Below, piece after piece: positions 249 through 20,575 of a stretch of 20,658 nucleotides of DNA. The translations under genes and the position numbers were made by a program. Source of the stretch: Candidatus Thorarchaeota archaeon (lineage in GTDB: Archaea > Asgardarchaeota > Thorarchaeia > Thorarchaeales > Thorarchaeaceae); NCBI GenBank assembly GCA_048882385.1, contig JBHLRQ010000054.1:1-20658 (forward strand), read 5' to 3'. The notes below the pieces were generated by a model that searched no databases, had not been told where the DNA came from, and saw nothing but the letters and a program-made list of their open reading frames with translations. Positions within the stretch are counted from its first letter, which is position 1, and each line of letters opens with the position of its first letter.

Positions 249-1556
249 ATGAAGAGTCTCTGTCCGATATGTGGACGTCTTGTTGAAAATTCCGAAACAG
301 TGGAGGGTGAGAATGTCTATCTTGACAAGACCTGTCCTGAACATGGTCCTACTCGAACCCTCGCATCATCAGATGCGGAATACTGGAAGGAGGCTCTCAA
401 ATACAACAGACCAGGAACATCTCCTTTGGTCTGGTCATCTCAGATAGACAAAGGGTGTCCTGATGACTGCGGCATCTGTTCTGCACACAAACAACACACC
501 TGTGTTGGAGTGATGGAGATAACTGGACAATGCAATCTGAACTGCAACATCTGTTTCGCTGATGCTCCATCTGGTAGTCATGTTCCATTTGATCAGATTT
601 CTCGCATGATTGATGCCTATGTGTCATATGAAGTAGAACCAGAACTCCTGCAATTGAGTGGAGGCGAACCAACTCTTCATCCAGACATTCTTGAGATTGT
701 TGGCTATGCAAAGACCCTTGGTATCCAAGATGTCGCTGTTTCAACAAACGGTCTGAGGCTGCTTGAAGAAGATTTTGCAGTAGAACTGGCAAAGACAGAC
801 CCAGTGATCTATCTCCAATTCGACACCTTTGATTCAAAAGTATCACAATTCATTCGAGGAAGAGACCTCGTCAATGAGAAGAAACGTGTTGTTGAGGTAT
901 GTAACGAACTGGGAATGACCACAGTTCTTGTTCCTACACTGATCAAGGGTATCAATGACCATGAGATTGGAAAATTGGTTCACTATGCTTTGGCTCAGAA
1001 GAAGGTCTTTGGTGTCAACTTCCAACCGGTTGCACTGACTGGAAGGATAGGAGTTCCTGAAATCTCAGCGATCTCGCTTCCCAAAGTTCTGAATGCAATC
1101 GAAATTCAGACAAACGGAATATTGGAGAAGAGTGACTTTCGCCCAATACCTTGTCCACATCCTCATTGCACTGCAATATCGTATGTATTGGTTGATGACC
1201 ATAAGGTGACACCACTAACTGACATCGTAAATGTTGACGAGTATATAGACTATGCACGAGACCGTACTCTAGTGAAAGAAGCTGTGCTGATGGATGAGGC
1301 GTTCAAGAGCCTATTCTCTACACGAGCTGTCCCAGGAACCGAGAGTAATCTGGAAGCATTCTGTGATGCATGTGGAATGACTATTCCTGAGGTCATAGGG
1401 AAATCTGTGAAGATAGTATCAGTTCATGCATTTATGGATCGTCAGACTTACCAGCTTGAGCGAGCCCAGAAGTGTTGTATCCATATCATTCAGCCTGATG
1501 GGAAGATGATTCCATTCTGTAACTATAACATGTTTCGAAGACATCAGGAGGGCTGA
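249..1556 (+). CDS. Radical SAM protein, tetraether lipid synthase (Tes/GDGT-MAS, MJ0619/COG1964)-like
   Basis: N-terminal rubredoxin-like SLCPIC...KTCPEHG, auxiliary cluster motif GCPDDCGICSAH, rSAM CNLNCNIC, SGGEPT, internal PCPHPHC, and C-terminal KCCIH...PDGKMIPFCNYN. This full motif set is characteristic of the family. Confidence 0.85.
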   Translation: MKSLCPICGRLVENSETVEGENVYLDKTCPEHGPTRTLASSDAEYWKEALKYNRPGTSPLVWSSQIDKGCPDDCGICSAHKQHTCVGVMEITGQCNLNCNICFADAPSGSHVPFDQISRMIDAYVSYEVEPELLQLSGGEPTLHPDILEIVGYAKTLGIQDVAVSTNGLRLLEEDFAVELAKTDPVIYLQFDTFDSKVSQFIRGRDLVNEKKRVVEVCNELGMTTVLVPTLIKGINDHEIGKLVHYALAQKKVFGVNFQPVALTGRIGVPEISAISLPKVLNAIEIQTNGILEKSDFRPIPCPHPHCTAISYVLVDDHKVTPLTDIVNVDEYIDYARDRTLVKEAVLMDEAFKSLFSTRAVPGTESNLEAFCDACGMTIPEVIGKSVKIVSVHAFMDRQTYQLERAQKCCIHIIQPDGKMIPFCNYNMFRRHQEG

Positions 1557-1560
1557 GTCC

Positions 1561-2358
1561 ATGAAGGTCGATGACTCTGTAGAGAAGGAACTTGGTATCT
1601 GCTGTGGAGATTTCTATAACCATCCAATCGTATCACAGTTACTCGATGGCATTTTTCATCCCGGAGGTCTTGCTCTGAGTAAGCTGATGGTTGACAGAAT
1701 GGGTGTTAACAGTCATTCCAGGGTTCTAGATATAGCCTGTGGTGATGGAAAGACTGCAACCTATCTTGCACGAAGCCTGGGTTGTAGAGTTTCTGGAATC
1801 GATGCTAGTCAGAAGATGATTGACTCAGCCAAAGAGCTTGCTGAGGATCTGAGAGTGAAAGATCTTACAGAATTCGAAGTGGCTCTCGCAGGAAAGATTC
1901 CTTATGGTGATGGAGAGTTTACTTCGGCAATCAGCGAGTGCTCTCTCTGCACCTTCTATGATAAAGACCAAGCTATGATCGAGATTGCGAGAGTTCTGAA
2001 GCCTGAAGGTATCTTTGGATTGAACGATGTGACAGTCCAAATCCATGAAGAGCTTGATGATGAACTGAGGAGTCTGCTTGGAAGAGTGGCATGTGTTGCC
2101 GATTCACTTTCTACAGAAGAATATGTGAACCTTTTCGAGAACAATGGTTTCAATCTGCTCGAATCATCAAACCATTCAGACCTTCTTGAGGACCTAGCGA
2201 GGAAAGCAAAGAGTCGTGCTCGTTTCTTCAGAGATGTTGCAAGAGACGATGAAACCATTGAAAAGATGAACGAGGCTGTGCGAATCATAGGTTTGATCGA
2301 GAACCAGATTACATCAGGAAACATTGGTTATGAGATGTTCATCTTCCAACAATCATGA
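1561..2358 (+). CDS. Class I SAM-dependent methyltransferase with ArsM-like cysteine pattern
   Basis: HPGG motif, motif I VLDIACGDG, ISECSLC, RVLKPEG and ACVADSLSTEEY...NGF. N-terminal CC. Starts 4 nt after the rSAM stop, so likely co-transcribed. Confidence 0.85.
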   Translation: MKVDDSVEKELGICCGDFYNHPIVSQLLDGIFHPGGLALSKLMVDRMGVNSHSRVLDIACGDGKTATYLARSLGCRVSGIDASQKMIDSAKELAEDLRVKDLTEFEVALAGKIPYGDGEFTSAISECSLCTFYDKDQAMIEIARVLKPEGIFGLNDVTVQIHEELDDELRSLLGRVACVADSLSTEEYVNLFENNGFNLLESSNHSDLLEDLARKAKSRARFFRDVARDDETIEKMNEAVRIIGLIENQITSGNIGYEMFIFQQS

Positions 2359-3015
2359 TTTTCTTGGCCTGTACAGGTCTTCGTAGAACATTCCTGAATA
2401 CATGAGTCTACGATAGACTGGTCTGAACATTTTAGATGCAATGTCACTTATTGGTACCGAATATGTTTGAGAGTTTCCACCAAGTCTTGTTGAGAGAAAG
2501 ATAGCAATTGGGTTGTAGATTCGAAGGAGACCCCTGAACTTTTGACAGTCCAAGAGCATGATGTAGCCGTCCTCACAGACTGTTTTTTCTATCTCCCTTA
2601 AAACAAGAGGGGAGTTGGGAATGATTGATAACGAATAGGTAGACATGACCAGGTCAAAACAACCTGTCACAAACTTAGACATCTCTCTGGCATCTACAAG
2701 TTTGAGATCGACATTCTCCCAACTCTGTTCACGGACTCTTCTAACAGCCTGTCTCAGCATGGCTGGGGTGTAGTCTATTCCTACTATCTCCTGATAATCC
2801 GGATACTTTTCAACAAGGAGAGGAAGGTTTGCTCCAGTCCCGGTGCTCACATCAAGTATTCTTGGTCGTTTCAGCTCTGGAAGTCTGTTTATTGCCTCTC
2901 TTCTCCATTTTCCAAGATTGACACCAAGAGCTCGATAGAACTTGATGAGCATCTGATACTGAAGAGCTGATGAACTGTAGATGTGACGAACTCTGTCTCC
3001 AGTCACATCCGTCAT
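2353..3015 (-). CDS. Class I SAM-dependent methyltransferase (UbiE/PmtA-like)
   Basis: ILDVSTGTGANL motif I, GIDYTPAML, VDA, FDLVMSTYSLSIIP. Confidence 0.85.
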   Translation of the reverse strand: MTDVTGDRVRHIYSSSALQYQMLIKFYRALGVNLGKWRREAINRLPELKRPRILDVSTGTGANLPLLVEKYPDYQEIVGIDYTPAMLRQAVRRVREQSWENVDLKLVDAREMSKFVTGCFDLVMSTYSLSIIPNSPLVLREIEKTVCEDGYIMLLDCQKFRGLLRIYNPIAIFLSTRLGGNSQTYSVPISDIASKMFRPVYRRLMYSGMFYEDLYRPRKS

Positions 3016-3027
3016 GTCACAATTACC

Positions 3028-3741
3028 TCAGATTGCATATTTGTAACACTGAATAACTCCAAACAGATGAAGCAGTCGAAAAGCGTTCTCTATGCGAATC
3101 TCATCTTTTGTATGGATTTCGGAATCCTGCAAAATCTCCGATGGTCGTCGCTTCTCTTCTAACAAATCGCAGATTCTAACTATATCTTCCATTGGCAGAT
3201 CGATGGTTTTGAGTAGAGGTGATGGTAGAAGATAGTTCCTGAACAGTGCTAATCCATTCCATCGCTCGTTGTCATGTTCAGAGAGTTGAAATGTGTGATC
3301 ATCATCCCAGAAGAAGACATCGTCTTGCTCTGCGAAGATTGTTCGAGCATGACGAGAGATTATGGTATCAATCTGAGACGTTTTCTCTGCTGTACGTATC
3401 TCAAAGTCATCCGTGAAACCAAGGCTTTCAATCTCCATCCCTATATGCTCGAGCTCTGGTTTTGCTTTTTCTATGAATGTACTGATACCTTGGTCAGTCA
3501 ACAGAACCACCAGACTGTTCTCAGTTCTGGAATAGACCAGCTCGTACGCTCTGAATCTTATAGTGTCTAGAGCGACATCTCCTTCCAGACCAAGACTGAC
3601 TCCGACATTCTCTATTGCTGATAATAGACCACCAAATAGTGCATCATCAATCTGGATATGTCCAGTTCCAACATGAGTGATTGGTATCCCACTCTTGTGA
3701 ATGATGAAGAGTTCTCTGACTGCCTGTTTAACCACTTGCAC
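3028..3741 (-). CDS. Hypothetical protein with N-terminal longin/roadblock-like domain and probable C-terminal winged helix
   Basis: ELFIIHKSGIPI...DDALFGGLLSAIE pattern typical of Asgard longin/roadblock-like domains. C-terminal helix-helix-'LHLFGVIQ' wing. GTG start with GGAGG upstream, overlapping the preceding gene. Confidence 0.7.
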   Translation of the reverse strand: MQVVKQAVRELFIIHKSGIPITHVGTGHIQIDDALFGGLLSAIENVGVSLGLEGDVALDTIRFRAYELVYSRTENSLVVLLTDQGISTFIEKAKPELEHIGMEIESLGFTDDFEIRTAEKTSQIDTIISRHARTIFAEQDDVFFWDDDHTFQLSEHDNERWNGLALFRNYLLPSPLLKTIDLPMEDIVRICDLLEEKRRPSEILQDSEIHTKDEIRIENAFRLLHLFGVIQCYKYAI

Positions 3742-4744
3742 TACCCTCCTTACCAGCGATTATCCAGTTATCACCAATTGTCTGCACAGTTAGGGCATGC
3801 TTCTGGAATGTTTCAGTGATGAAATCCCTGTTTAGGGGTTGTGGGTACCCATCTATCGTTTGCATCAGGACATAGGCAGGTGTACTTACAGTCTGTCCTG
3901 GAGACAAAGTTGGGTCGTTAGTAACGACTCGACCTCCAGGTTTTAGGTAGTCCGATATCGTCTTGACTCTCTCATCCACTGTTTCGTGGTAGAAGGAGAA
4001 AATCTCCTCTCCGTAAAAGAGATCTAGACCTGTACTCAAATCCCGTCCTAGTAGGTCCGGAACGAGTTTGAAGAAGATGTCATCCCAAGACAGAAGCTGA
4101 AGAATTGTTTTCAGAGGTGTAAACCATCTCAAGTCTTGAAGGAAGATATGTATCCTCTCTGGATTGAAGATTTCATCAATTTGTTTGAGGGTAAAGGGCA
4201 GACCAACATCTGCGAACGCGGACACTCCAATCTCTTTAGTATTCTTTGGAGAGAAAGACCGAAGAAGAACTCCTCTACCTTTTTCAGTCAATGTGCTGCT
4301 GAAAACTGTTTCCAGCACTACTCTTGGTACATCGTTCAAAGAAACCTTTTTTCCAATGAGTGCTTCTGGGAGATACTTAGAACAGTCATAGTAGAAATTG
4401 GTCATTGCGGATCCTACATCTTCTGGACGAATGGATGTGGTTTTCACTTCACGAATTTGGTATTTGCCATCTACAAATGAAACTATATTTTCTCCGACAA
4501 GGACACTTAGGATATCACTGAGAAGACGCATGTCTGTGTATCCGTTCTCTCGCGCGAGCTCTTCCATAGTCTTCGGATTTGAGAGTGTGATTATCCAACC
4601 CTCAGCTAGTATAGTGTTCACTATTAACCGTAATGCGGTTTCCTCTGACTCCTTGTATTCTGCATAGGCTTTCCTCAGATCACCGTCTGTAAGGTATTTG
4701 CCAACACGCTTGAGTCCAAATATGGTCCCACTAAACCGTTCCAT
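3728..4744 (-). CDS. Winged-HTH plus methyltransferase-fold protein with degenerate SAM-binding motif
   Basis: PKTMEELARENG...LSVLVGENIVSFVDGKY wHTH and C-terminal DLFY...YLKPGGRVVTND. Start moved from 4780 to the ATG at 4744, which overlaps the DUF547 stop (TGATG) and follows AGGAGG. Confidence 0.7.
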   Translation of the reverse strand: MERFSGTIFGLKRVGKYLTDGDLRKAYAEYKESEETALRLIVNTILAEGWIITLSNPKTMEELARENGYTDMRLLSDILSVLVGENIVSFVDGKYQIREVKTTSIRPEDVGSAMTNFYYDCSKYLPEALIGKKVSLNDVPRVVLETVFSSTLTEKGRGVLLRSFSPKNTKEIGVSAFADVGLPFTLKQIDEIFNPERIHIFLQDLRWFTPLKTILQLLSWDDIFFKLVPDLLGRDLSTGLDLFYGEEIFSFYHETVDERVKTISDYLKPGGRVVTNDPTLSPGQTVSTPAYVLMQTIDGYPQPLNRDFITETFQKHALTVQTIGDNWIIAGKEGSASG

Positions 4745-5481
4745 CAATTCTCCTCCTGCGCACTGACATTGAGTGCCCAATCGTATCCAATGTATTTTAG
4801 TTTGACCTTGCCATTTTGCTCATCGATATACTTCCTAATATCACTCGGTGCGTACTCTTGGATAAACTCTGTTACACTCTTGCCAGTTACTTCAAAGTCC
4901 TTCTTGTACCACTTGAAGATCATACTGGCATAGAGCACACCCTCATTCTTGTCCAGTTGAAGACCCTCTTTGCTTCTGAGGTATAATTTCGTAGCTGCTT
5001 CTAATTCAGCATCAAGATTCTCAGCGCTGTAGAATCCGTCCTTCAGAAGGGGACATCCCAATGAGGAGCAGTTTAAAGCAAAGTGGACCCTTGGGTCTTC
5101 AAAGTCTTTTCTAATATTGTCCTCGATTGTCCTCAGTGTATATTCTGTTCCTCCTACATTGAATTTTTGGAGAGCAAAAAATCTCACACGACTGAACCAG
5201 CTCTTGTTACCCTTGTTGGCGAAATCTGGATCCTTTTGCAGCTTTTTGACGACTCCGTAGATTGACAAAGCATTGTAGCTGTTTATCCAGAAAGCCATCT
5301 TTTCCTCTCTAGTCTTCAAACCATTGAGGTCAAAATCTGCTAGCGTTTCAGCATAGTCAACCATCGATTTGTCTGCCATCAGAGCGAAGTAGTTTACTTT
5401 GCCCTGAGGGTCTCGATATCTTTCGATGATGCTGTTCAGATTTTGGTTAAGACTTGTGAGTTCTGTGGTGGCATCAGACAT
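4744..5481 (-). CDS. DUF547 domain-containing protein
   Basis: G-VNY, EKMAFWINSYNA, DPRVHFALNCSSLGCPLL, SMIFKWYKKDF and YDWALN, the DUF547 signature motifs. Confidence 0.9.
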   Translation of the reverse strand: MSDATTELTSLNQNLNSIIERYRDPQGKVNYFALMADKSMVDYAETLADFDLNGLKTREEKMAFWINSYNALSIYGVVKKLQKDPDFANKGNKSWFSRVRFFALQKFNVGGTEYTLRTIEDNIRKDFEDPRVHFALNCSSLGCPLLKDGFYSAENLDAELEAATKLYLRSKEGLQLDKNEGVLYASMIFKWYKKDFEVTGKSVTEFIQEYAPSDIRKYIDEQNGKVKLKYIGYDWALNVSAQEEN

Positions 5482-5555
5482 GTTTTCACATCCAGTCTTC
5501 CGTTTGAAGGAATGATTACACTATGATTTCCGGGTTTGAAAGTATTGATACTCAA

Positions 5556-5936
5556 TCATGTTCCAAGCTTGGACCAATCAATAATGATCACCAGAAATGT
5601 GAGTCCACCTAGCACGACCTTTAGCGTATTGAGAAAGTTGCCCAGATCAGCAGCAACTCCCATTGTTGATGGGAAGAATGGTAGTATTCCCATGAACAAT
5701 AGGATAAGACCTACTGTCAGTAACCAGAGCTTACCATTGAGCATCTCCATATCTGTTTCTCGAAATGCTACTATGAGTGTGATTAGTGCAACAATGATCT
5801 TTATGATGCTCAGAACAGTTCCTCCATCAAAGAACAGTATTGCTGCAGTTTCGGGTACAAGCGATAGTGCACCCACAATGATCAAGCTTATCCCATTGAT
5901 CCACATCCATGCTTTAGTACCTAGAATGTTCATCAT
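5556..5936 (-). CDS. Small integral membrane protein (4 TM) made of two internal repeats
   Basis: Four hydrophobic segments, GAGGAG SD before the ATG, and two alignable halves of about 62 aa. Confidence 0.75.
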   Translation of the reverse strand: MMNILGTKAWMWINGISLIIVGALSLVPETAAILFFDGGTVLSIIKIIVALITLIVAFRETDMEMLNGKLWLLTVGLILLFMGILPFFPSTMGVAADLGNFLNTLKVVLGGLTFLVIIIDWSKLGT

Positions 5937-6039: not shown

Positions 6040-6906
6040 TCATACTGCTGCTCGCAAGAATCTAAAGAAGAGTCTGACCCTACTTGGACGAACCAGAAGG
6101 GCTGGTACTTCCTTTCTATACTCAGCATACCCATCACCAAATCGCTCAATCAGTTCTTTCTCTTCTCTCACAATCTGCAACCTGAAGACCAAGAAGATTA
6201 TCACAAATAATAGGATGGAGTATACTGAGAACCTGAAGAAGAGACCTGCAGCACCTAGCATCACGCCACCAAGATAGGTTGGGTGTCGAATCACGGAGTA
6301 GATTTCATTGTTCTGGACCTCAGATTCCTCAGGGAAATAGAGATACACAACAGCCATGTAATCTAAGCCAAATGTAAGAATCGCGCTTCGTACAGTGGCT
6401 GCTCCCAAAATTATGAAAACAGCTGATATGATAATTCTCAACCATACATCGACTTGAGGGTCAACTCCAATCATCGCCAAAAGTGATCTTGACCATTGGA
6501 TTGTAAGTTCATTTACAGGGGGTCCTGGAGGAAGTGAACGAATTGATGTGAATGCATGAAATACAAGCGGTGGAATCAGGAAAACACCAATCAATCCCCT
6601 GGGAATCATTTTTTGATAAGCACGGTCCCCTAAACTTGCTTTCATCTCTTCTCTCTTGCTCCAGACCTGACCTATAAGCCCAAATCCCAGTGCAGCTATT
6701 AAGATGCTACCAACAAGCGGTAGAAAGGGTTCAATCATTACCAATATCGAACTATCACTAAATACTCTGGGAATGATATCCAGAACGATAATGAAGGCAA
6801 ATGCCAGAACTGATGCCAAAGCACACAGCAGAGGTAGTACAACAAGTCTCTTCCCGGGATATGCTGGAAGTTTCTCGCGAAGTTTGTCCATTCCTTTCAA
6901 ATGCAT
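6040..6906 (-). CDS. Isoprenylcysteine carboxyl methyltransferase / phospholipid methyltransferase (ICMT/PEMT) family membrane protein
   Basis: IYSVIRHPTYLG and EEKELIERFGDGYAEYRKEVP motifs with multiple TM helices. Start uncertain (TTG 6933, ATG 6906 or ATG 6891). Confidence 0.85.
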   Translation of the reverse strand: MHLKGMDKLREKLPAYPGKRLVVLPLLCALASVLAFAFIIVLDIIPRVFSDSSILVMIEPFLPLVGSILIAALGFGLIGQVWSKREEMKASLGDRAYQKMIPRGLIGVFLIPPLVFHAFTSIRSLPPGPPVNELTIQWSRSLLAMIGVDPQVDVWLRIIISAVFIILGAATVRSAILTFGLDYMAVVYLYFPEESEVQNNEIYSVIRHPTYLGGVMLGAAGLFFRFSVYSILLFVIIFLVFRLQIVREEKELIERFGDGYAEYRKEVPALLVRPSRVRLFFRFLRAAV

Positions 6907-6972
6907 CTTATCCGCCTTTTGTAGGTGAATCAAACGCTCTTATCAACGTCACGTACAACAAGATAGGATGAA

Positions 6973-8277
6973 TCAAAGTTTGGTCAATTTTCCAGCAGCA
7001 TTTGAAATTCCTTCTAATGTTCTTTCGATGTCTTGTTCTGAATGTGTGAACGATAGGGCTCCTAATCCGTGATATCCGAAAACACCCTCTTGCATCAAGA
7101 ACCCTTGGAAGAGGTCCTGCTTGGCATGATTAAAGAGTGCTCCAAGCTGACCTGGTGTCTTAGGCGGTTCATCAAGGACTTTCGTCAAATGACTCACAAA
7201 GTTGATTGATCCGTAACCAGTCCCTATGAGAGGTGCATTCATGTCTTGAAGCATCTGATTCAATCGCTCTCTAAAGGAGTCGCCCTTTTTATTCAGCGTC
7301 TTGTATTCGTCCTTTTTTTCCTGCAACAGTCCCAAGACCGCTATACCTGCAGCCATCGTTAGTGGATGACTTGAGAATGTTCCACCACCGACCCACCGAC
7401 CCCCTTCAGCTCCTGGTACTGCTAGAGCCATGATATCCTCACGACCTCCGTAGACTCCTAATGGCATCCCACCCGCGGCTGCTTTCCCGAGCGTCAAAAG
7501 GTCAGGTTCTGCTCCAAACACCCCGTCACCTGCAGTCCCAAATCTTAAACGAAAACCAGTAATGATTTCATCAAAAACCAGTAGAATGTCTCGAGAAGCT
7601 GTTTCTTCTCTCATGTAAACGAGAAACTCATTTTCTGGAGGAATCCCGCCACCTGCACCAATCACTGGTTCAATGATGACAGCTGCAAGGTCTTTTCCAT
7701 GCTCCTTTAGCATTCTGTCAAAGCTCTCTCTGTCATTATAATCAAATGAAACACCATTGTAAAATGGCGCGTCTGTATATGGGTGACTCATATGAAAAGT
7801 GAGCGCATCATTTCCTCCATGCCAGCCACCCAGTGACTTTCCGATGAGTTTCCTTTTAGTGAACAGCCTTGCTAGCCTCACTGCATATTGAGTTGACTCT
7901 GCTCCAGTGGCTGTGAATCGCATTTTTCTGAGTAATGGAACAGCTTCTTTGAGTAGTTCTCCATACTTGACTTGAGGTTCATTTGGAATTCCGAAGTGGT
8001 GGCCTCCTTCGAATTGGTCGATGATCGCCTTCTTCACAACTGGGTCATTATGGCCAAGAATGAGAGAGTAGTGAGTCATCCACCAGTCAATGTACTCGTT
8101 CCCGTCCACATCCCAGATGTGTCCCCCCTTTCCATGACTCACATAGGGTGGGTAAGCACCACAACCGGGCATACCAAAATTGCGGATATTGTGACTCACT
8201 CCGCCTGGAAACAGAGTGACAGCTCTCTTCCAGAGGGCTTCTGATTTTGGTGTTCTTGCTTTATATTCATCGAGCAT
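6973..8277 (-). CDS. Class III PLP-dependent aminotransferase (GSA-aminomutase-like)
   Basis: DVDGNEYID, LILGH, AAVIIEPV, LLVFDEIITGFR, PDLLTLGK (PLP lysine), GTFSSHPL. ATG at 8277 follows GGAGGAG (ORF track start 8292). Confidence 0.9.
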   Translation of the reverse strand: MLDEYKARTPKSEALWKRAVTLFPGGVSHNIRNFGMPGCGAYPPYVSHGKGGHIWDVDGNEYIDWWMTHYSLILGHNDPVVKKAIIDQFEGGHHFGIPNEPQVKYGELLKEAVPLLRKMRFTATGAESTQYAVRLARLFTKRKLIGKSLGGWHGGNDALTFHMSHPYTDAPFYNGVSFDYNDRESFDRMLKEHGKDLAAVIIEPVIGAGGGIPPENEFLVYMREETASRDILLVFDEIITGFRLRFGTAGDGVFGAEPDLLTLGKAAAGGMPLGVYGGREDIMALAVPGAEGGRWVGGGTFSSHPLTMAAGIAVLGLLQEKKDEYKTLNKKGDSFRERLNQMLQDMNAPLIGTGYGSINFVSHLTKVLDEPPKTPGQLGALFNHAKQDLFQGFLMQEGVFGYHGLGALSFTHSEQDIERTLEGISNAAGKLTKL

Positions 8278-8293
8278 TTTGTGCTCCTCCACG

Positions 8294-9319
8294 TTATTCT
8301 TCTTTCCAAACTCGCGATGTGTTTCTTGGTACTGGAAGGTCTTTCATTGTCTTGAGACCAGGTGATTCTTGAATCACAATTGGAATCAAGTTGATGATCA
8401 TACCAATTGTGCCTAGGTCTCCCTGAACACCTCCCTTAATCCTCTGTTGTATTGGAGGAAGACCATCTATTATGATCTCATCATATTGAGGTGTTGCCTC
8501 TGCATAGGCTTGAAAGTCAAGAGTGACTATTTGTTTGCCCTCCCTTCTTCCCACTCCAACACTTCTCAGACCAAGAACATCACCTTTTTTGATGGTTGTA
8601 AATGAATTTGTTATCTCTTGATCTGCAATGATTGCCTCAGGGGGAATCTCTTCTATCTCATCCAATCCTAGGTGCAGTCCTGCATCAATCATCTGGATTG
8701 ACTCTACAAGTCCCACGTGCCCAGTGATATTTCCATCATCGATCTTCCTTCGAAATTCGTCCACTGTCATTCCTGTTCCAATCTTCTTCTGGAATGATGG
8801 TCTCCTGTGACTTGAATTCATATGACGAGTAACTGTGATAGTGTCCACATGCTGACAGGGTCCCGTGAGCACAATAGGAAGCAAATCCATCAGATATCCT
8901 GGATTGATTCCAGTTCCCACTACTGTCTTGCCCTCCTTCTTGGCGATTCTATCAAGCCTTTTAGCTATCACAGACTGTTTCCGATACGGGAATGATAGTT
9001 CCTCACAAATAGAGATAACATCAAGACCATTCTCTAGACATGTTTCGATAGTTGAGGTAACAGCTTCAAGAGAGGATGCAGTAGCAACTATGGCGATATC
9101 TGCAGGACTGGCCTTAAGGACCATCTTCAGGTCATTAGTAATTATAATGTCGCTATCAGTTTCTTCCTCCATCAACTCTCCTACTGTCTTATTCTCCAGA
9201 TCTGGATTTGCATCAATCACTGCCACAAGCTCAAGATTTTCTCTATTGATGATAGCACTAGCAATATGACGGCCCAGTGACCCAAATCCAACCTGTATTA
9301 CTCTGAATGGCTTTGCCAT
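8294..9319 (-). CDS. NAD(P)-dependent amine dehydrogenase, 2,4-diaminopentanoate dehydrogenase (Ord)-like
   Basis: GFGSLG Rossmann motif, DVISICEEL, GTGINPGYLMD, KKIGTG, GHVGL, GGVQGD. ATG at 9319 follows AGGAG. Confidence 0.85.
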   Translation of the reverse strand: MAKPFRVIQVGFGSLGRHIASAIINRENLELVAVIDANPDLENKTVGELMEEETDSDIIITNDLKMVLKASPADIAIVATASSLEAVTSTIETCLENGLDVISICEELSFPYRKQSVIAKRLDRIAKKEGKTVVGTGINPGYLMDLLPIVLTGPCQHVDTITVTRHMNSSHRRPSFQKKIGTGMTVDEFRRKIDDGNITGHVGLVESIQMIDAGLHLGLDEIEEIPPEAIIADQEITNSFTTIKKGDVLGLRSVGVGRREGKQIVTLDFQAYAEATPQYDEIIIDGLPPIQQRIKGGVQGDLGTIGMIINLIPIVIQESPGLKTMKDLPVPRNTSRVWKEE

Positions 9320-9366
9320 GGAAGTATGCTCCTTGAACTTAGTCACGCGAGTGAATTACAGTTTAA

Positions 9367-9915
9367 TCAGTCTATCGAGAAGGAAAGAGTAAACAAAAAC
9401 ATGCCAGAGTTTTCAAGAAATGCCTCCTTGTATCTTCTCTTTCTGCACAGAGAAACCGCACCTTCATGGTCGGTATAGTATACAATGCCATCAAATCCAG
9501 CCTTCGAAACATAGTCTTCAAAAAAGGAAAAGACCTGATGACCATAGCCCTTTCCTCGGTGGTCCGATTTCAACCAGAGTTCGTGTAATTCAACAAGATT
9601 GTCCTTCTTACCTCCGAAGAGTTGTTTCAAACATTTCCTATCCTCCTCCCCTCGAGGATCACCAGGAATCATCTCTTCGGTGCTTGTTTCATGCCATATA
9701 CAGTGCCCTACAATTTGCTCTTCTTCTATCCATGTAATCAGATGATTCGCATCTCGTTCAATGTGCTGTTCTTCATCTGTTCCGAGATCGAAGGATCCTG
9801 ATTGTCTTGAACCGATGCTTATGTAGTACTCTTGCAGATCCGATAGACTACGGTAGTATTTCCTGAACTCTTCAATAGAAAATCCGCCCACAATGAAGTC
9901 TAACAATGAAATCAC
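9367..9915 (-). CDS. GNAT family N-acetyltransferase
   Basis: ELHELWLKSDHRGKGYG acetyl-CoA motif A. Start may instead be TTG at 9906 after GGTGA. Confidence 0.8.
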   Translation of the reverse strand: MISLLDFIVGGFSIEEFRKYYRSLSDLQEYYISIGSRQSGSFDLGTDEEQHIERDANHLITWIEEEQIVGHCIWHETSTEEMIPGDPRGEEDRKCLKQLFGGKKDNLVELHELWLKSDHRGKGYGHQVFSFFEDYVSKAGFDGIVYYTDHEGAVSLCRKRRYKEAFLENSGMFLFTLSFSID

Positions 9916-9918
9916 CTT

Positions 9919-10872
9919 CTATTCAGTCCAAACATGGCTGATAGAACCGCGTACCTTTTTGAATCCGAGCTTTTCGTAGAGTGCAATTGCTCTAACATTC
10001 TCAATATCTACTTCAAGTACAACTTTCTCCATTCTGTTCTTAGCTGCCCTCGCAAGACTAGCTGTCATTAACTTCTTCGCCAGACCTTTCTTCCTAAATT
10101 CCGGGTGTATCCCAATTCCGTTAACAAAACCACCAATGCTAATGATATTGATCTTCATGAACCCAATAATTTTCTCGCTGGAATATAGGAGCAGAGACGC
10201 ATCCTCCTCTATTTTTTTCGATCTTTCAAAGAAGTTGTCAAAGCTCTCCCTACGTTGTTTCTCTGTCTGATCCAAGTATCTTCGGTCCCCACTAGATAGG
10301 AATGTTTCATTGTAGCATGGCCAGATCTCCTCGTTGTTCACATCAATTATACGTTTCAAGAAGAATCCCTCTGGAAAATCAGGCTCTGTGAATTCTGATG
10401 ATGTCAGTTCACATATCATCTGACTCCATTCATTCCCCCTTCTCATACCTGCGGCTTCGTAGAGTGGTCTGTATCTTTCATATGTCGATCTCACATCGTC
10501 AGTCAGTTCCATCAGAAAGACTTCCAAGCGATTTCGTCCAATTGAAATTGTGTGACTAATCGCTTCCTTGACTAAGCGTTTAAACACAATCTCAAAATCC
10601 TCTCCTGGTAGTACAAGAGGGTGCCAAGAGTCGAGATAGACCATTGACTCCGACAAAACATAGAGACCTGCCCAACCAACTAACTTCTTTTCCTCGCGGG
10701 CTAGTAGGTAATAATAAGGAACCTCTGCAGCGTTTTGGATGAACCTCTCGACTTCTTCTATTGTGTTTCCACATCTCAACTGAGCATCAAGCTGCTTTTG
10801 AGATTCCATAGTGAATTGAACAATCTCTTCAACATCTATGTCGTGATGCTTGAGAATTTCAATGACAACCAA
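9919..10872 (-). CDS. Tandem-domain GNAT N-acetyltransferase
   Basis: C-terminal IGIHPEFRKKGLA...LEVDIENVRAIALYEKLGF plus a degenerate N-terminal GNAT domain. TTG at 10872 follows GAGGTG and avoids the 26-nt overlap implied by the 10911 call. Confidence 0.85.
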   Translation of the reverse strand: MVVIEILKHHDIDVEEIVQFTMESQKQLDAQLRCGNTIEEVERFIQNAAEVPYYYLLAREEKKLVGWAGLYVLSESMVYLDSWHPLVLPGEDFEIVFKRLVKEAISHTISIGRNRLEVFLMELTDDVRSTYERYRPLYEAAGMRRGNEWSQMICELTSSEFTEPDFPEGFFLKRIIDVNNEEIWPCYNETFLSSGDRRYLDQTEKQRRESFDNFFERSKKIEEDASLLLYSSEKIIGFMKINIISIGGFVNGIGIHPEFRKKGLAKKLMTASLARAAKNRMEKVVLEVDIENVRAIALYEKLGFKKVRGSISHVWTE

Positions 10873-10885
10873 CCAAGGAACACCT

Positions 10886-11752
10886 CTAGGTGCTAAATTC
10901 AGCTTTCCCATGTGTCAAAACTAGAATGTCATTCTCATCTCTCGTTTCAAAATGCACAACCTGTAATCCTTCTTCATTTACTCCTCCATCATATACCTCT
11001 GTCGTGATGGTCTGATCAAGCAATACAGGACTGGAGAAACGAACGCTCATACTCTTCAACCGAGTTGGATCTCCATTGAGTAGTCCATCAACAATCACCT
11101 GAGAAGCCATCGCCATTGTGCATAAACCATGAAGGATTGCTCTGGGAAGTCCTACACTTCTAGCAATCTCATCGCTAACATGTATCGGATTGTGGTCCCC
11201 AGAAGCCTCCGCATATCTCACGCCTTGATCTGAAGTTACTCCAATACTCTGCTTCGTAATCAACTTCCCTCTCTTAGGTTCTTGATATTCAGGTGGAGTC
11301 TTCTTCTCTCCTTCCTTTTTCTTGCCCCTCACTAGTATACGGTAGTCCATCTGTACAACAATGTCATCATCTCGCTTGCAGTAAATCTCAAGATCCAATA
11401 TCTCGTTCACACCACGTGTTTCTATGTTGACAATCTTTGCTGTGGTGTGAATCTCATCACCTGGTCTGAGAATCCCTCTCCATATCATCCTGTGCTCAGC
11501 ATGGACAGCTCTCAGAATGTTGAAGTCCATATTTTCAGCATCATCACCTATCTGGCTCAGGATGCCCGGTAGAAAGACAACTGGATATATTGGAGGCGTA
11601 ACCGTTTCTGAGTCAGGAGCACTGTATCGAGGATTCTCATCATTTGTCCCTAACGCATATTTTTGTATGCTCTGCGGATCCACAATCTGAGAGTCCACAC
11701 GATACACCTTCCCAAGAAAATCTCTGTTCAGCTTTGTAGTTTCTTCGCTCAA
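10886..11752 (-). CDS. MaoC-family double hot-dog (R)-enoyl-CoA hydratase/dehydratase
   Basis: YAEASGDHNPIH...GLPRAILHGLCT hydratase-2 motif, VRFSSPV and an N-terminal hot-dog half (VHAEH). TTG start overlaps the ligase stop. Confidence 0.9.
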   Translation of the reverse strand: MSEETTKLNRDFLGKVYRVDSQIVDPQSIQKYALGTNDENPRYSAPDSETVTPPIYPVVFLPGILSQIGDDAENMDFNILRAVHAEHRMIWRGILRPGDEIHTTAKIVNIETRGVNEILDLEIYCKRDDDIVVQMDYRILVRGKKKEGEKKTPPEYQEPKRGKLITKQSIGVTSDQGVRYAEASGDHNPIHVSDEIARSVGLPRAILHGLCTMAMASQVIVDGLLNGDPTRLKSMSVRFSSPVLLDQTITTEVYDGGVNEEGLQVVHFETRDENDILVLTHGKAEFST

Positions 11753-13443
11753 TTTTGACCCTCCAACTTGACTATTTCTTCTTCCCTAAGGATTTTCTTG
11801 TGGAGCTTCATTATATGAGTCAATGGGAGCTCATCTCGGAACTCTACAAACTTGGGCACTGCATACGGTTTGACCTTATCCCTCAAAAACTCGATTATTT
11901 CCTCCTCTGAGATCTTGCCTCTATGCTCTTGCTCTAGCTGGATGAACGCTTTTACACGCTCGCTCCCAGGTCGTTCAGGGTCTGGTACGCCAATAACTCC
12001 TGCTACTTCAACTGCAGGATGTTCATGGAGGATGTCATCTATGACCCGACTGTAAACCTTGTTCCCTCCGACAATAATCATGTCCTTGATTCGGTCGACC
12101 ACTGTGAAGTATCCATCATCATCAACAGTTACCATGTCCCCCATTCTGATCCAACCGTCTGCTTCAAGACCTGAACCAGGAGTCGGCCAGTAGCCCAGCA
12201 TGCATTGAGGCCCCCTGACCCAGATCTCTCCAGTATCTCCATACGGGAGTTCTTCTCCAGTTTCCGGGTCGATGACCTTTACCTCCGTGTCTGGCAAGGG
12301 AACACCAACACCCCGCTTGACCTGCTTCATGAACCCAGTCACCTTAGAGAATGCAGAGATGTTGACTGAAACTCCACCAGAGGTCTCTGTTGCTCCGTAC
12401 CCCTCGCCCATAGGAACACCTGCAATCTTCTCGAACTCCTCTGCGAGCTCCGGTGGGAGAGCAGCTGCAGCGGAGTAGTAGAATATTTGCCCCTTCTTCA
12501 GTGGCATATTGCAGAAAACAGTGTAATGGGCAGGCACTGCGAAGACAATGGCAGGTCTATACTCGTTGATCACTTCTACTATCTTGACCATATCTCTAGG
12601 ATCCATGAGAAACATCTTGAGACCCCAAGAGATGCTTGCATGGATTGCCCAGTGTCCATATGTGTGAAATATGGGAACACAGATTGCAGTTGCAGCCTTT
12701 CCAACTATTCCAGCCTTCAGAGGGTCCATCATCCAGTGAACTGTCTGCACTACATTTGAGGTGAGGTTGTAATGTGTCAACATTGTCCCCTTGGGCACAC
12801 CCGTGGTGCCACCTGTAAAAGGAAGCAAGGCTATATCCTCTCTCGGGTTGATTTCGACAACTTCTGTGTGGGGCTCATACTTTTCGAGTAGTTCTTCAAA
12901 GCGGTAGTATCCAGGCCCAGAGATGTCTTCCATTTCGGGGAACTGATAGTCTGGGAATATCTTGGTAGGAGCATAAATGACTGTCTTCACTTCTGTGTGA
13001 GGTTTGATTTCGTTCACTCGAGGTATTCTCCTGTATGAACAGAAGACCAGCTCTGATTTACTCTCCTTGATCTCATGAAGAAGGTCATCGGTCTTGTGAA
13101 GAATACTCAGGGGAACATGAATGGCTCCTATCTTCATACAGGCAAAGTCGACAATGATGAACTCTGGACATGATGGCAGAACCGAAGCGACGGTGTTGCC
13201 CTTCTTCACTCCGAAGTCGACTAATGCGGATGCCAAGCGATCCGCTTTGTCTTTCAAATCTGGATAAGTTATCTCCTCATCTGCATACACACAAGCGATA
13301 TTTTTCGGAAACTTTTCTGCGGCCTCCTCCAAGAACGAATACACATTGATCTCTGGATATGGTTGCATCGAGTGCTTCAACTTGAAGGGTCCGAGAGAAT
13401 ATGATTTGAGCCAGGGTTTGTCTTGATAACTCAACGTAATCAT
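11749..13443 (-). CDS. Long-chain fatty acid--CoA ligase (AMP-binding)
   Basis: FTGGTTGVPKG P-loop, EGYGATE, GEIWVRGPQ, MGD, VDRIKDMI, VPKFVEFRDELP. Confidence 0.9.
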   Translation of the reverse strand: MITLSYQDKPWLKSYSLGPFKLKHSMQPYPEINVYSFLEEAAEKFPKNIACVYADEEITYPDLKDKADRLASALVDFGVKKGNTVASVLPSCPEFIIVDFACMKIGAIHVPLSILHKTDDLLHEIKESKSELVFCSYRRIPRVNEIKPHTEVKTVIYAPTKIFPDYQFPEMEDISGPGYYRFEELLEKYEPHTEVVEINPREDIALLPFTGGTTGVPKGTMLTHYNLTSNVVQTVHWMMDPLKAGIVGKAATAICVPIFHTYGHWAIHASISWGLKMFLMDPRDMVKIVEVINEYRPAIVFAVPAHYTVFCNMPLKKGQIFYYSAAAALPPELAEEFEKIAGVPMGEGYGATETSGGVSVNISAFSKVTGFMKQVKRGVGVPLPDTEVKVIDPETGEELPYGDTGEIWVRGPQCMLGYWPTPGSGLEADGWIRMGDMVTVDDDGYFTVVDRIKDMIIVGGNKVYSRVIDDILHEHPAVEVAGVIGVPDPERPGSERVKAFIQLEQEHRGKISEEEIIEFLRDKVKPYAVPKFVEFRDELPLTHIMKLHKKILREEEIVKLEGQN

Positions 13444-13464
13444 CTCTGACTAAGACACAAGTCC

Positions 13465-15339: not shown

Positions 15340-15382
15340 CTTGTGTCCATCCTCGCAATCTTGTCTTGGAAACTTACTTCTA

Positions 15383-15832: not shown

Positions 15833-15847
15833 TTATCATTCCTCCCT

Positions 15848-16841: not shown

Positions 16842-17014
16842 GATTGATTCGTCACTCTACTTTCAATATAGTTCAATCTTCCAAGAACCAACACACGAAA
16901 GATAATCAGGAGCAATACTATTAGTGCTTGTCCCAGTAGATAAGAGAAAACAACAAAAAATAGCGATGCTGCTTCTAAACCTCTGGATGTAGAATTTCTA
17001 AAACTAGGGAACAA
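16826..17014 (-). CDS. Possible small membrane peptide downstream of tetR
   Basis: 62-aa ORF with one long hydrophobic stretch, filling the gap between tetR and the convergent gene. No recognisable motif. Confidence 0.2.
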   Translation of the reverse strand: MFPSFRNSTSRGLEAASLFFVVFSYLLGQALIVLLLIIFRVLVLGRLNYIESRVTNQSHEDV

Positions 17015-20539: not shown

Positions 20540-20575
20540 TCCACACTTCTTCCATTGCCGAATAACCAACTTAAT

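What the first reader, a model, noticed from the sequence alone, without database searches (positions are those of the whole stretch)
249..2358. Tes-like radical SAM enzyme paired with an ArsM-like methyltransferase: candidate metalloid-lipid or other non-canonical pathway
Seen: the rSAM enzyme keeps all Tes/GDGT-MAS metal motifs but is only 435 aa. Its partner, 4 nt downstream, has C14-C15, C127 (ISECSLC) and C178 (ACVADSLSTEEY...NGF). Known: arsenite methyltransferases have catalytic Cys about 50 residues apart in SNCV and GCxAGAL..EEY...AGF contexts (here 51 apart). ArsM works with rSAM enzymes in arsenosugar (ArsS) and arsinothricin (ArsL) synthesis, and Tes activates terminal alkyl C-H bonds. 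Inference (speculative): this is a Tes paralogue that might couple an alkyl radical to a methylated metalloid (arsenolipid-like) or thiol rather than make GDGT.
Basis: partly seen in the sequence, partly recalled or inferred. Interest (0 to 1): 0.7.

Follow-up and report, generated by a model that had tools for sequence, protein, structure and literature searches.

The report
Tes-like radical enzyme–methyltransferase cassette
Two adjacent genes of an Asgard archaeon encode a relative of the archaeal tetraether-lipid synthase and a cysteine-rich, arsenite-methyltransferase-like partner; the same pair occurs in many archaea and bacteria, so it probably carries out a still unknown two-enzyme reaction rather than ordinary lipid or arsenic metabolism.

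Summary
Window 249..1556 encodes a 435-aa radical SAM (rSAM) enzyme with all four GDGT-MAS/Tes metal motifs. Four nucleotides downstream, 1561..2358 encodes a 265-aa class I methyltransferase (MT) with near-invariant C14, C15, C127, C130 and C178.

It is neither Tes nor ArsM. The same genome has a canonical Tes (630 bits, cut-off 450) and a canonical ArsM (314 bits, cut-off 263) elsewhere. In a careful tree the rSAM lies on the far side of a 100/99 split from both Tes and NCBI's TrsS. It also lacks the Met439 and Tyr459 equivalents of Tes.

The pair is a conserved cassette. The Tes-like rSAM lies upstream on the same strand in 79 of 80 MT-bearing loci, from Asgard, Thermoplasmata, Nitrosopumilaceae, Actinomycetota (many Streptomyces), Armatimonadota and Chloroflexota. 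In the related TrsS/DVU_1556 system the two proteins occur fused. A complex prediction supports binding (0.72; best control 0.01).

MT C127 and C178 align with the two ArsM arsenic-binding cysteines, and the CC pair with an ArsM N-terminal CC. No ars genes were seen nearby; neighbours are thiol-redox, lipid-binding and further MT genes.

The substrate is unknown. My best guess is radical C–H activation coupled to methylation of a cysteine-held soft atom. The arsenolipid idea remains open but unsupported.

The parts
249..1556 (+). Radical SAM enzyme of the Tes/GDGT-MAS fold, 435 aa. It belongs to a third branch of the family ('clade A'). It has four metallocofactor motifs and an extra C372-X2-C375.
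1561..2358 (+). MT1, a class I SAM methyltransferase of 265 aa. C14, C15, C127, C130 and C178 are near-invariant (ArsM-type positions). An invariant HPGG motif lies at the predicted interface with the rSAM.
2353..3015 (-). MT2, a UbiE/CpaM-like class I methyltransferase of 220 aa. It is convergent with MT1 and overlaps it by 6 nt. It is kept in 16 of 17 orthologue loci of the Thorarchaeota family and is absent from the non-Asgard loci.
3028..3741 (-). Asgard-specific protein of 237 aa with no known family, kept in 10 of 10 Asgard loci.
3728..4780 (-). Cryptic class I methyltransferase-fold protein (350 aa as listed; it probably starts at residue 13). It has no Pfam hit and is kept in 9 of 10 Asgard loci.
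4744..5481 (-). DUF547 protein of 245 aa, kept in 8 of 10 Asgard loci. A DUF547 gene also lies directly upstream of the rSAM in one Armatimonadota locus (L062).
5556..5936 (-). Small hydrophobic protein of 126 aa, judged hydrophobic by eye from the translation. It sits at the end of the conserved minus-strand block and is found in 6 of 10 Asgard loci.

Best explanation
The two genes are one functional unit. They belong to a widespread, uncharacterised two-gene cassette made of (i) a four-metallocofactor radical SAM enzyme with the GDGT-MAS/Tes fold, from a family branch separate from both Tes and TrsS, and (ii) a class I methyltransferase that carries ArsM-type cysteines on a RebM/CMAS-like scaffold.

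Shown:
- the pair is conserved across two domains of life;
- it is distinct from the genome's own Tes and ArsM;
- the same kind of pair occurs fused in the sister TrsS/DVU_1556 system;
- structure prediction places the two proteins in a complex.

Inferred mechanism (about 30% likely in this form):
1. The rSAM abstracts a hydrogen from an unactivated carbon of a hydrophobic, probably lipid-like substrate.
2. As in Tes, it traps the radical on a soft atom. That atom could be cluster sulfide or a thiol-, selenium- or metalloid-type atom. The enzyme does not couple two lipid tails, because the Tes-specific Tyr459 and Met439 are replaced and the C-terminal domain is remodelled with an extra CxxC.
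3. The partner holds the soft atom between C127/C130/C178 and the N-terminal CC and methylates it with SAM.
4. The resulting cysteine disulfide is re-reduced by the thiol-redox proteins that recur beside the cassette.

The product would be a methyl-heteroatom-substituted alkyl compound. The pair is neither the GDGT synthase nor the housekeeping arsenite methylase.
For: Linkage:
- rSAM followed by MT1 on the same strand in 16 of 17 Thorarchaeota-family orthologue loci; the 17th is cut by a contig end. The same arrangement holds in 3 more distant Asgard loci.
- Starting from the MT, 79 of 80 loci from named genomes have the Tes-like rSAM upstream on the same strand. The estimated gap is 206 nt or less in 78 of the 79.
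- Fusions among true TrsS proteins: P0294 (DVU_1556 MT followed by TrsS) and P0387 (TrsS followed by MT).
- Complex prediction: ipSAE 0.72 (runs 0.69, 0.72, 0.74), best of 3 controls 0.01. The runs agree in at least 61% of contacts and the partner's pLDDT is at least 81. The mark was reached by 116 of 157 solved complexes and by 2 of 215 mismatched pairs. My own alignments were used, so those counts hold only roughly. The interface includes the family-invariant HPGG segment of the MT.

Not Tes, TrsS or ArsM:
- NCBIfam scores: TrsS 349.6 (cut-off 490), Tes 323 (cut-off 450), DVU_1556 MT 128 (cut-off 155), ArsM 68 (cut-off 263).
- The genome has its own Tes at 630 bits and its own ArsM at 313.7 bits.
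- In the careful tree a 100/99 split separates Tes plus TrsS from the window clade and the other MT-linked clades.
- The Met439 position is His in 7/7 clade A rows and Gln in 10/12 clade B rows, against Met in 6/8 Tes rows. The Tyr459 position is never Tyr in clades A or B, against Tyr in 6/8 Tes rows. An extra CxxC is present in A and B and is a gap in Tes and TrsS.
- Streptomyces and Amycolatopsis genomes that carry the cassette have no Tes above the cut-off.
- In Nitrosopumilaceae, 37 of 41 genomes have a canonical Tes and only 1 of 41 has the cassette type.

Soft-atom site:
- C127 and C178 align with the ArsM SNC and GC(I/V)GG cysteines, and the CC pair aligns with the ArsM 'SCCG'.
- These cysteines are invariant in the family.

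Lipid and thiol context:
- The fold matches lipid-bound GDGT-MAS (Lloyd 2022 passages).
- Sister-clade proteins are fused to an Lgt domain.
- Recurring neighbours are SRPBCC, CDP-alcohol phosphatidyltransferase-like, AhpC/Redoxin, DsbA, OsmC, AhpD-like, DsrE and CxxxxC flavoprotein disulfide reductases.
Against: - No substrate, product or activity is known for any member of this family, nor for TrsS.
- The neighbour genes vary between phyla. Most counts come from Streptomyces, so they are not independent.
- Outside the pair itself, nothing is universal.
- The MT's overall fold is closest to small-molecule, isoprenoid and lipid C-, N- and O-methyltransferases (AtmM, MitM, CmaA1, GPP-MT, PMT). 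The cysteines could therefore serve another role, such as a metal site, a redox function or a methyl-cysteine carrier.
- The predicted interface involves the outer helices of both proteins. The residue list gives no indication that the two active sites face each other.
- The ArsM 'GCGNP' cysteine is missing.
- The tree is unrooted, and clade B has only 87/79 support.
Confidence: 0.45

Rival explanations
1. Organo-arsenical or other organo-metalloid lipid synthesis. MT1 binds and methylates As(III), or Sb, Se or Te, like ArsM. The Tes-like rSAM then couples a terminal alkyl radical to the methylated metalloid, by analogy with ArsS and ArsL.
For: - ArsM-type cysteines sit at homologous positions.
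- After DVU_1556, the next best NCBIfam matches of MT1 are the arsinothricin ArsM_2 model (79 bits) and arsenite methyltransferase (68 bits).
- There is a precedent of rSAM plus ArsM in arsinothricin synthesis (abstracts seen in the listing).
- The rSAM has the fold of an enzyme that abstracts hydrogen from a terminal lipid carbon.
- The patchy, accessory distribution resembles that of resistance or specialised-metabolism genes.
Against: - All ArsM models score far below their cut-offs.
- The genome already has a canonical ArsM.
- The GCGNP cysteine is absent.
- No Acr3, ArsB, ArsC or mer genes were recognised in the scanned flanks. A single ArsR-type HTH was seen, in L066.
Confidence: 0.12
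2. Lipid-tail C-methylation or cyclopropanation. The rSAM desaturates or activates a lipid or isoprenoid tail. MT1, a CMAS/GPP-MT-like enzyme, then methylates the resulting olefin. The cysteines replace the usual acid/base residues.
For: - The top structural neighbours of MT1 include mycolic-acid cyclopropane synthases, CFAS and GPP/FPP C-methyltransferases (Z 23-26, all tied).
- Lloyd 2022 discusses a terminal-olefin route for Tes.
- Neighbours include SRPBCC and CDP-alcohol phosphatidyltransferase-like genes.
- The Asgard block holds two further MT-fold genes.
Against: - Five invariant cysteines at ArsM positions are not a feature of the CMAS or GPP-MT matches listed. Sequence identity to those structures is 12-19%.
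- By sequence profile, the family aligns to ArsM with 99.6% probability.
Confidence: 0.13
3. Split radical methylase. MT1 methylates one of its own cysteines. The rSAM abstracts hydrogen from that S-methyl group and transfers a methylene to the substrate, in the manner of RlmN/Cfr (mechanism recalled from memory). A second cysteine resolves the adduct as a disulfide.
For: - The MT has invariant cysteine pairs.
- A complex is predicted.
- Thiol-disulfide reductases recur nearby.
- MJ0619 was once classed as a radical SAM methylase.
Against: - This rests purely on analogy.
- The interface residues listed do not include the cysteines.
- The methylase assignment of MJ0619 could not be corroborated by Lloyd 2022.
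Confidence: 0.08
4. The pair is simply a divergent member of NCBI's TrsS/DVU_1556 system, or a second GDGT synthase with an accessory methylase, with the same function as those systems.
For: - The best NCBIfam names are TrsS and the DVU_1556-family MT.
- The metal motifs are shared with Tes.
Against: - Both scores are below the cut-offs.
- The tree places the rSAM across a 100/99 split from both TrsS and Tes.
- No DVU_1551 or DVU_1553 family genes are found in the genome.
- The cassette occurs in Streptomyces genomes that have no Tes above the cut-off.
Confidence: 0.1

Closest known systems
Tes / GDGT-MAS (MJ0619; PDB 7tol, 7tom)
   Same: It has the same fold (TMq 0.88). It shares the rubredoxin-type CX2CX20CX2H motif, the N-terminal auxiliary cluster motif, the radical SAM CX3CX2C motif and the conserved C-terminal cysteines.
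   Different: - Identity to the genome's own Tes is 29%, and the protein is about 50 aa shorter in the C-terminal domain.
- The Met439 position is His and the Tyr459 position is Ile. There is an extra CxxC, and C85 is conserved.
- It lies outside the Tes clade.
- It always has an MT partner.
- The cassette is also found in genomes that lack a Tes above the cut-off.
TrsS radical SAM (seleno)protein with the DVU_1556-family methyltransferase (NCBIfam NF045646 and NF045667; attributed to Haft & Tolstoy 2025 in the table of PMC13188914. I could not read the original paper.)
   Same: These are the best-scoring named families for both proteins. It is also an rSAM-plus-MT partnership, sometimes fused. 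The DVU_1556 MT keeps cysteines aligned with C127 and C178.
   Different: - Both proteins score below the cut-offs.
- They lie on opposite sides of a 100/99 split.
- TrsS keeps Met at the Met439 position and lacks the extra CxxC.
- C130 and the HPGG motif are not kept in P0294.
- The genome has no DVU_1551 or DVU_1553 partners.
- There is no in-frame TGA, so this protein is not a selenoprotein.
Arsenite S-adenosylmethionine methyltransferase ArsM, and its rSAM partners ArsL and ArsS
   Same: The cysteines align with the ArsM SNC and GC(I/V)GG cysteines and with an N-terminal CC. The logic of pairing an rSAM with an MT is the same (abstracts seen).
   Different: - The score is 68 bits against a cut-off of 263.
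- The GCGNP cysteine is missing.
- The C-terminal helical lid is of the RebM/CMAS type.
- The rSAM partner is of the Tes type, not ArsL. The ArsL model matches a different gene in the window, weakly.
- There is no ars gene context.
Two-component rSAM plus methyltransferase pairs in natural-product synthesis (C10P/C10Q, cyclopropane formation)
   Same: A radical SAM enzyme and a class I MT-fold protein act on one substrate. I saw only the title of Jin et al. 2018, in the reference list of PMC13459092.
   Different: As far as I recall, the rSAM there is of the HemN type. No sequence relationship was tested here.

Membership tests
Tes / GDGT-MAS | Score at or above the NCBIfam NF045702 cut-off (450 bits) | tested here: not met
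   323.1 bits, with the best stretch covering only profile positions 3-313 of 486; 310.9 bits in the genome search.
Tes / GDGT-MAS | Falls inside the clade of proteins that score above the Tes cut-off | tested here: not met
   The Tes clade (8 rows, 100/97) excludes it. It lies across a 100/99 split (quick tree agrees).
Tes / GDGT-MAS | Four metallocofactor motifs (rubredoxin Fe, [4Fe-4S]N, [4Fe-4S]RS and C-terminal cluster cysteines) | tested here: met
Tes / GDGT-MAS | Labile Met439 ligand, and Tyr459, which is strictly conserved in archaeal homologues according to Lloyd 2022 | tested here: not met
   H393 and I413 occupy the aligned positions. Clade A has His in 7/7 rows and no Tyr.
Tes / GDGT-MAS | Forms biphytanyl C-C bonds (GDGT or macrocyclic archaeol) | not testable with these tools
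   This needs complementation or an in vitro assay.
TrsS (NF045646) | Score at or above the cut-off (490 bits) | tested here: not met
   349.6 bits, matched over the full length.
TrsS (NF045646) | Falls inside the clade of proteins that score above the TrsS cut-off | tested here: not met
   The TrsS clade (100/99) is sister to Tes. The window clade lies on the other side of the 100/99 split.
TrsS system | Partner genes of the DVU_1551, DVU_1553 and DVU_1556 families above their cut-offs | tested here: not met
   The best scores in the genome are 49 (cut-off 315), 29.8 (cut-off 300) and 126.5 (cut-off 155). That these families are TrsS partners is inferred from the fusions seen.
ArsM (NF008823 and related models) | Score at or above the cut-off (263 bits) | tested here: not met
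   68.2 bits; ArsM_2 79.2 bits against a cut-off of 240. The genome's real ArsM scores 313.7 bits.
ArsM | Cysteine pair after beta-4 (SNC) and at GC(I/V)GG that binds As(III) | tested here: met
   C127 and C178 align with them. Their role in As binding is recalled from the ArsM literature and was not checked here.
ArsM | N-terminal cysteines (a CC or SCCG motif, and the GCGNP cysteine before the SAM motif) | tested here: inconclusive
   The CC pair aligns with the ArsM SCCG. The GCGNP cysteine has no counterpart.
ArsM | Methylates As(III) | not testable with these tools
   This needs an enzyme assay.
Conserved rSAM + five-Cys MT cassette (defined here) | Tes-fold rSAM directly upstream of an MT that carries the CC...ECS(L/V)C...ACVA cysteines | tested here: met
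   The locus scan used the ECSLC motif as its pattern, so conservation of that motif in those loci is circular. The linkage to the rSAM is not.

The most novel reading that the evidence does not exclude
The cassette is the missing enzyme pair that makes carbon-metalloid or carbon-chalcogen bonds at the ends of lipid tails. Products could be dimethylarsinoyl hydrocarbons or fatty acids, or their Se/S analogues. A Tes-type enzyme would generate a terminal alkyl radical and couple it to an atom held and methylated by the ArsM-like partner. A corollary follows from the fact that an MT partner occurs on both sides of the deepest split of the family: tetraether synthase itself may have evolved from such a heteroatom-alkylating two-enzyme system by losing the partner.
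Probability: 0.08. Interest if true: 0.9.

Novelty: new variant of a known kind. Interest (0 to 1): 0.6.

Why it matters
- Lloyd et al. 2022 noted bacterial GDGT-MAS homologues of unknown function. This finding gives a large part of them a defining feature, an obligate cysteine-rich methyltransferase partner, and so a concrete experimental handle. Many carriers are cultivable Streptomyces, Nocardiopsis and Amycolatopsis.
- It warns against counting every Tes-like gene in metagenomes as a GDGT producer. That matters for lipid biomarker work. In the Thorarchaeota family sampled, 17 of 77 genomes carry this paralogue.
- If the chemistry joins an unactivated carbon to a soft heteroatom, it would be a new reaction type for the radical SAM superfamily.

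Tried and rejected
- Literature. 'TrsS' appears only as a table row in PMC13188914. The source paper, Haft & Tolstoy 2025 (PMC12013261), is not held, so what it says about TrsS and DVU_1556 is unknown to me and may bear on novelty. The DVU_1555/1556/1557 terms gave 0 papers. COG1964, IPR034474, PF23545, NF045646 and NF045667 gave only Lloyd 2022, that review and an unrelated paper. The Tes-homologue/Streptomyces search and the passages of the 2026 lipid-rSAM review mention no MT-linked paralogue. DUF547 papers were uninformative.
- RNA evidence: no RNA holder was listed, so no reads were laid.
- PDB by sequence with MT1: no ArsM chain at E <= 1e-4.
- Foldseek and VIA-align lists for the MT1 model show no ArsM row among those printed. 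This does not exclude similarity.
- The MerA idea for the flavoprotein neighbours was rejected. All score under the MerA cut-off, and only 1 of 14 has the C-terminal CC pair.
- Other window genes (AFOR, acyl-CoA ligase, MaoC, SCP2) were considered as TrsS-like partners and rejected. The ligase scores 29.8 bits for DVU_1553, and these genes are not kept in the related Asgard loci.
Full report
**What is there.** The window is contig C54 of a 3.7-Mb genome that is 95% complete. The closest homologues of its proteins are named Candidatus Thorarchaeota or Promethearchaeota. ORF 249..1556 (+) encodes 435 aa. ORF 1561..2358 (+) encodes 265 aa and starts 4 nt after the first one's stop codon. Pfam finds Zn_ribbon_HMPTM plus Radical_SAM in the first protein and class I methyltransferase domains in the second.

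**Checking the observation: the rSAM.** Lloyd et al. 2022 (PMC9433317; I read passages) describe MjGDGT-MAS (MJ0619). They report a rubredoxin-type C9X2C12X20C33X2H36 site, an N-terminal [4Fe-4S] cluster on C73/C77/C80 plus His, the radical SAM cluster, and a C-terminal cluster with a labile Met439. They also report that Tyr459 is strictly conserved in 1,000 archaeal homologues.

The only PDB sequence match of the window protein is that enzyme (7tol/7tom, E 2.7e-75). In that alignment the window protein has:
- C5, C8, C29 and H32;
- C70, C74, C77 and H80;
- C95, C99 and C102;
- conserved C-terminal C307, C409/C410 and C424.

These are conserved over the 99 family members I aligned and in A3. 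An AF2 model (pLDDT 87.0) superposes on 7tom with TMq 0.88. The next hit, MoaA, has TMq 0.40. The missing 50 or so residues lie in the C-terminal half.

**Checking the observation: the methyltransferase.** Of the 120 homologues listed, 105 are at least 240 aa long (31-100% identity). In these, C127, C130 and C178 are present in 105/105, C15 in 101/105 and C14 in 98/105 (also A1 and A2).

BLASTP (E 4e-14) and hhalign (probability 99.6%, 191 columns) both align MT C127 with the SNC cysteine and C178 with the GCIGG cysteine. hhalign also aligns the family's CC pair with the ArsM 'SCCG'. The GCGNP cysteine has no counterpart.

**It is not Tes, not ArsM and not TrsS.**
- NCBIfam ranks the rSAM highest against TrsS (349.6 bits, cut-off 490), then Tes (323.1 bits, cut-off 450).
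- It ranks the MT highest against the DVU_1556-family methyltransferase (128 bits, cut-off 155), then two ArsM models (79 bits against 240; 68 bits against 263).
- The same genome has a canonical Tes on contig C7 (630.3 bits) and a canonical ArsM on C22 (313.7 bits).
- It has no DVU_1551, DVU_1553 or DVU_1556 family member above the cut-offs.

I took the 150 best 50%-identity representatives from an exhaustive search and classified 119 of them with NCBIfam (96, 23). I then built trees that also held the named MT-linked proteins.

The careful tree has 52 rows (LG+G4, ultrafast bootstrap/SH-aLRT). For speed I kept 8 TrsS rows and a hand-picked 14 of the 'neither' rows. It shows:
- Tes as one clade (100/97);
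- TrsS as one clade (100/99);
- the two as sisters (96/90);
- a 100/99 split separating them from a group that holds the window clade, the bacterial and thaumarchaeal MT-linked clade and other unnamed clades.

The window clade ('clade A': Thorarchaeota, Promethearchaeota and Thermoplasmata) has 99/91 support. The bacterial and thaumarchaeal clade ('clade B') has 87/79. The quick 99-row tree agrees on the Tes clade. Both trees are unrooted.

Column counts show further differences:

| Position | Clade A | Clade B | TrsS | Tes |
|---|---|---|---|---|
| Met439 equivalent | His 7/7 | Gln 10/12 | Met 14/14 | Met 6/8 |
| Tyr459 equivalent | no Tyr in 7 rows | no Tyr in 12 rows | Val 12/14 | Tyr 6/8 |
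| Extra C372-X2-C375 | 7/7 | 11/12 and 9/12 | gap in all | gap in all |

**The pair is a conserved cassette.**
- Within the phylum sample of 301 genomes, orthologues of at least 61% identity occur in 17 of 77 genomes of the window's family and in 7 of 25 of its genus.
- All 17 loci carry MT1 directly downstream on the same strand, one of them cut at a contig end. Sixteen also carry the convergent MT2. Three more distant Asgard relatives also have MT1. Nine Tes-like loci have none.
- Starting from the MT, a scan of one genome per species found 314 loci. The best 80 are from Thorarchaeota/Promethearchaeota, Thermoplasmata, Nitrosopumilaceae/Thaumarchaeota, many Streptomyces, Nocardiopsis, Amycolatopsis, Streptacidiphilus, a Mycobacterium MAG, Solirubrobacterales, Gaiellaceae, Armatimonadota, Dehalococcoidales and others.
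- In 79 of these 80 loci a Tes-like rSAM (31-44% identical outside Asgard) lies upstream on the same strand. The exception is a 2.2-kb contig with only 392 nt upstream.
- Estimated gaps are 206 nt or less in 78 of the 79 loci and 1.5 kb in the remaining one.
- The scan pattern was the ECSLC motif itself. Conservation of that motif in these loci is therefore circular, but the linkage to the rSAM is not.
- Streptomyces (G301) and Amycolatopsis (G305) genomes with the cassette have no Tes above the cut-off. A Thermoplasmata genome has both a Tes and the paralogue.
- In Nitrosopumilaceae, 37 of 41 genomes have a canonical Tes, and only the genome that brought the locus has the cassette type.

The cassette is therefore accessory and patchy, and it is independent of GDGT synthesis.

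**Physical link.**
- Among true TrsS proteins, P0294 is a DVU_1556 MT followed by TrsS, and P0387 is TrsS followed by an MT. Others are fused to the DVU_1551 NTP transferase, the DVU_1553 ligase or DUF5714.
- The P0294 MT keeps cysteines aligned with C127 and C178.
- A complex prediction for the window pair scored 0.72 (runs 0.69, 0.72, 0.74), against 0.01 for the best of three controls. The runs agree in at least 61% of contacts, and the partner's pLDDT is at least 81. The mark was reached by 116 of 157 solved complexes and by 2 of 215 mismatched pairs. Because my own alignments were used, those counts hold only roughly.
- This supports binding but does not show it.
- The interface comprises rSAM residues 60-61, 118-131 and 153-158, and MT residues 34-42 (the invariant HPGG segment), 68-72, 93-97 and 208.

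**Context.** In ten Asgard loci the conserved block is rSAM and MT1 on the plus strand. On the minus strand it is MT2, a 237-aa Asgard-only protein, a 350-aa protein, DUF547 and a small hydrophobic protein. This corresponds to window 249..5936. The 350-aa protein has no Pfam hit, but both language-model features and the Atlas structure place it among class I methyltransferases (a lead only).

Outside Asgard nothing but the pair is universal. Recurrent neighbours in the 81 loci examined:
- MauE in 23 loci;
- SRPBCC in 22;
- a CDP-alcohol phosphatidyltransferase-like protein in 18;
- DUF3179 in 14;
- CxxxxC flavoprotein disulfide reductases in 14 loci from 7 taxon groups. These are MerA-like but under the cut-off, and only 1 of 14 has the C-terminal CC;
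- DsbD_TM in 13;
- DUF427 in 11;
- Crp regulators in 11;
- AhpC/Redoxin in 6;
- single cases of DsbA, OsmC, an AhpD-like protein, DsrE and further methyltransferases.

Thirty-seven of the 80 fetched loci are Streptomyces, so these counts are not independent. No Acr3, ArsB, ArsC or mer genes were recognised. One ArsR-type HTH was seen, in L066.

Two representatives of a neighbouring 'neither' clade are fused to an Lgt (prolipoprotein diacylglyceryl transferase) domain. This points to lipids as substrates in that part of the family.

**Methyltransferase fold.** The AF2 model of MT1 (pLDDT 90.3) is closest to AtmM, MitM, RebM and SpnF, to phosphoethanolamine and sarcosine N-methyltransferases, to mycolic-acid and fatty-acid cyclopropane synthases, and to GPP/FPP C-methyltransferases. 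Foldseek E-values reach 3e-20. VIA Z-scores are 23-26 and all tied. MT1 thus looks like ArsM-type cysteines on a generic lidded small-molecule or lipid MT scaffold.

**Interpretation.** What is shown is a conserved, probably complex-forming pair that is distinct from Tes, TrsS and ArsM. The mechanism is inferred. The rSAM should still cleave SAM and abstract a hydrogen in a hydrophobic pocket. It has lost the residues that Lloyd et al. single out for Tes, and it has gained a CxxC. Its partner places five invariant cysteines where ArsM binds its thiophilic substrate.

I therefore favour, at about 30%, radical formation of a bond between carbon and a soft atom (S, Se or a metalloid), followed or preceded by methylation on the MT, with neighbouring thiol-redox proteins recycling the cysteines. 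Other rivals are olefin C-methylation or cyclopropanation of lipids, a split RlmN-like methylase, and plain TrsS or Tes function.

**Use of an unpublished genome.** One search flagged the genome of locus L063 (G304, Armatimonadota) as unpublished. The following rest on it:
- the Armatimonadota row;
- the L063 entries, including one of the 14 disulfide-reductase neighbours and one of the 12 clade B rows.

None of the main conclusions depends on it.

**Limits.**
- I could not read Haft & Tolstoy 2025.
- No expression data were found.
- The neighbour ORFs in high-GC loci were called with a crude longest-ORF/GC3 rule. That rule missed the MT itself in many loci, replacing it with an antisense ORF, so absences in those maps are weak evidence.
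- CmArsM residue numbers and roles are recalled from memory and were not checked here.

Noticed in passing
P0284, P0337 (representatives): These are Tes-like radical SAM proteins fused to an N-terminal Lgt (prolipoprotein diacylglyceryl transferase) domain. They belong to a clade that is neither Tes nor TrsS, which hints at another lipid- or thioether-related function in the family.
   Followed up: partly
P0276, P0302, P0321, P0328, P0377, P0288, P0334 (representatives): True TrsS proteins occur fused to the DVU_1551 NTP transferase, the DVU_1553 AMP-dependent ligase or DUF5714. This outlines a multi-enzyme TrsS pathway.
   Followed up: partly
window 3728..4780 (-): A 350-aa protein has no Pfam or NCBIfam family, yet the protein atlas places it among class I methyltransferases (score 0.94; TM 0.7-0.79). 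It would be a third MT-fold gene in the conserved Asgard block.
   Followed up: partly
window 17630..18811 (-) and 19019..20656 (-): Two more radical SAM genes sit at the window's end. One is a B12-binding HpnJ/BchE-like enzyme that also gives a weak ArsL match (72.8 bits; cut-off 450). The other is a SPASM AhbD/NirJ-like enzyme that runs off the contig. A TetR regulator lies next to them at 17004..17717.
   Followed up: no
window 6973..9346 (-) and 9367..10911 (-): A 2,4-diaminopentanoate dehydrogenase-like gene (284.5 bits; cut-off 400) lies next to a class III aminotransferase/GSA-aminomutase-like gene and two GNAT acetyltransferases. This may be a diamino-acid degradation module.
   Followed up: no
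window 10886..16252 (-): This stretch holds a MaoC-like double hot-dog dehydratase, a long-chain acyl-CoA ligase, a tungsten-type aldehyde:ferredoxin oxidoreductase and two weak SCP2-like genes. It looks like a fatty-acid/aldehyde module. It is not conserved with the cassette in the related loci.
   Followed up: partly
window 6040..6933 (-): A membrane ICMT/PEMT-family methyltransferase lies just beyond the conserved block. It is shared with only one other Asgard locus (L054).
   Followed up: partly
L068 versus L067: The rSAM of a MAG labelled 'uncultured delta proteobacterium' (70% GC) is almost identical to that of a Solirubrobacteraceae MAG (end branches 0.014 and 0.054). The label or the binning of L068 is doubtful.
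   Followed up: no
L104 and L116 (Streptomyces sp. NBC_01092 chromosome): One Streptomyces genome carries two copies of the cassette, about 8 Mb apart near the two chromosome arms.
   Followed up: no
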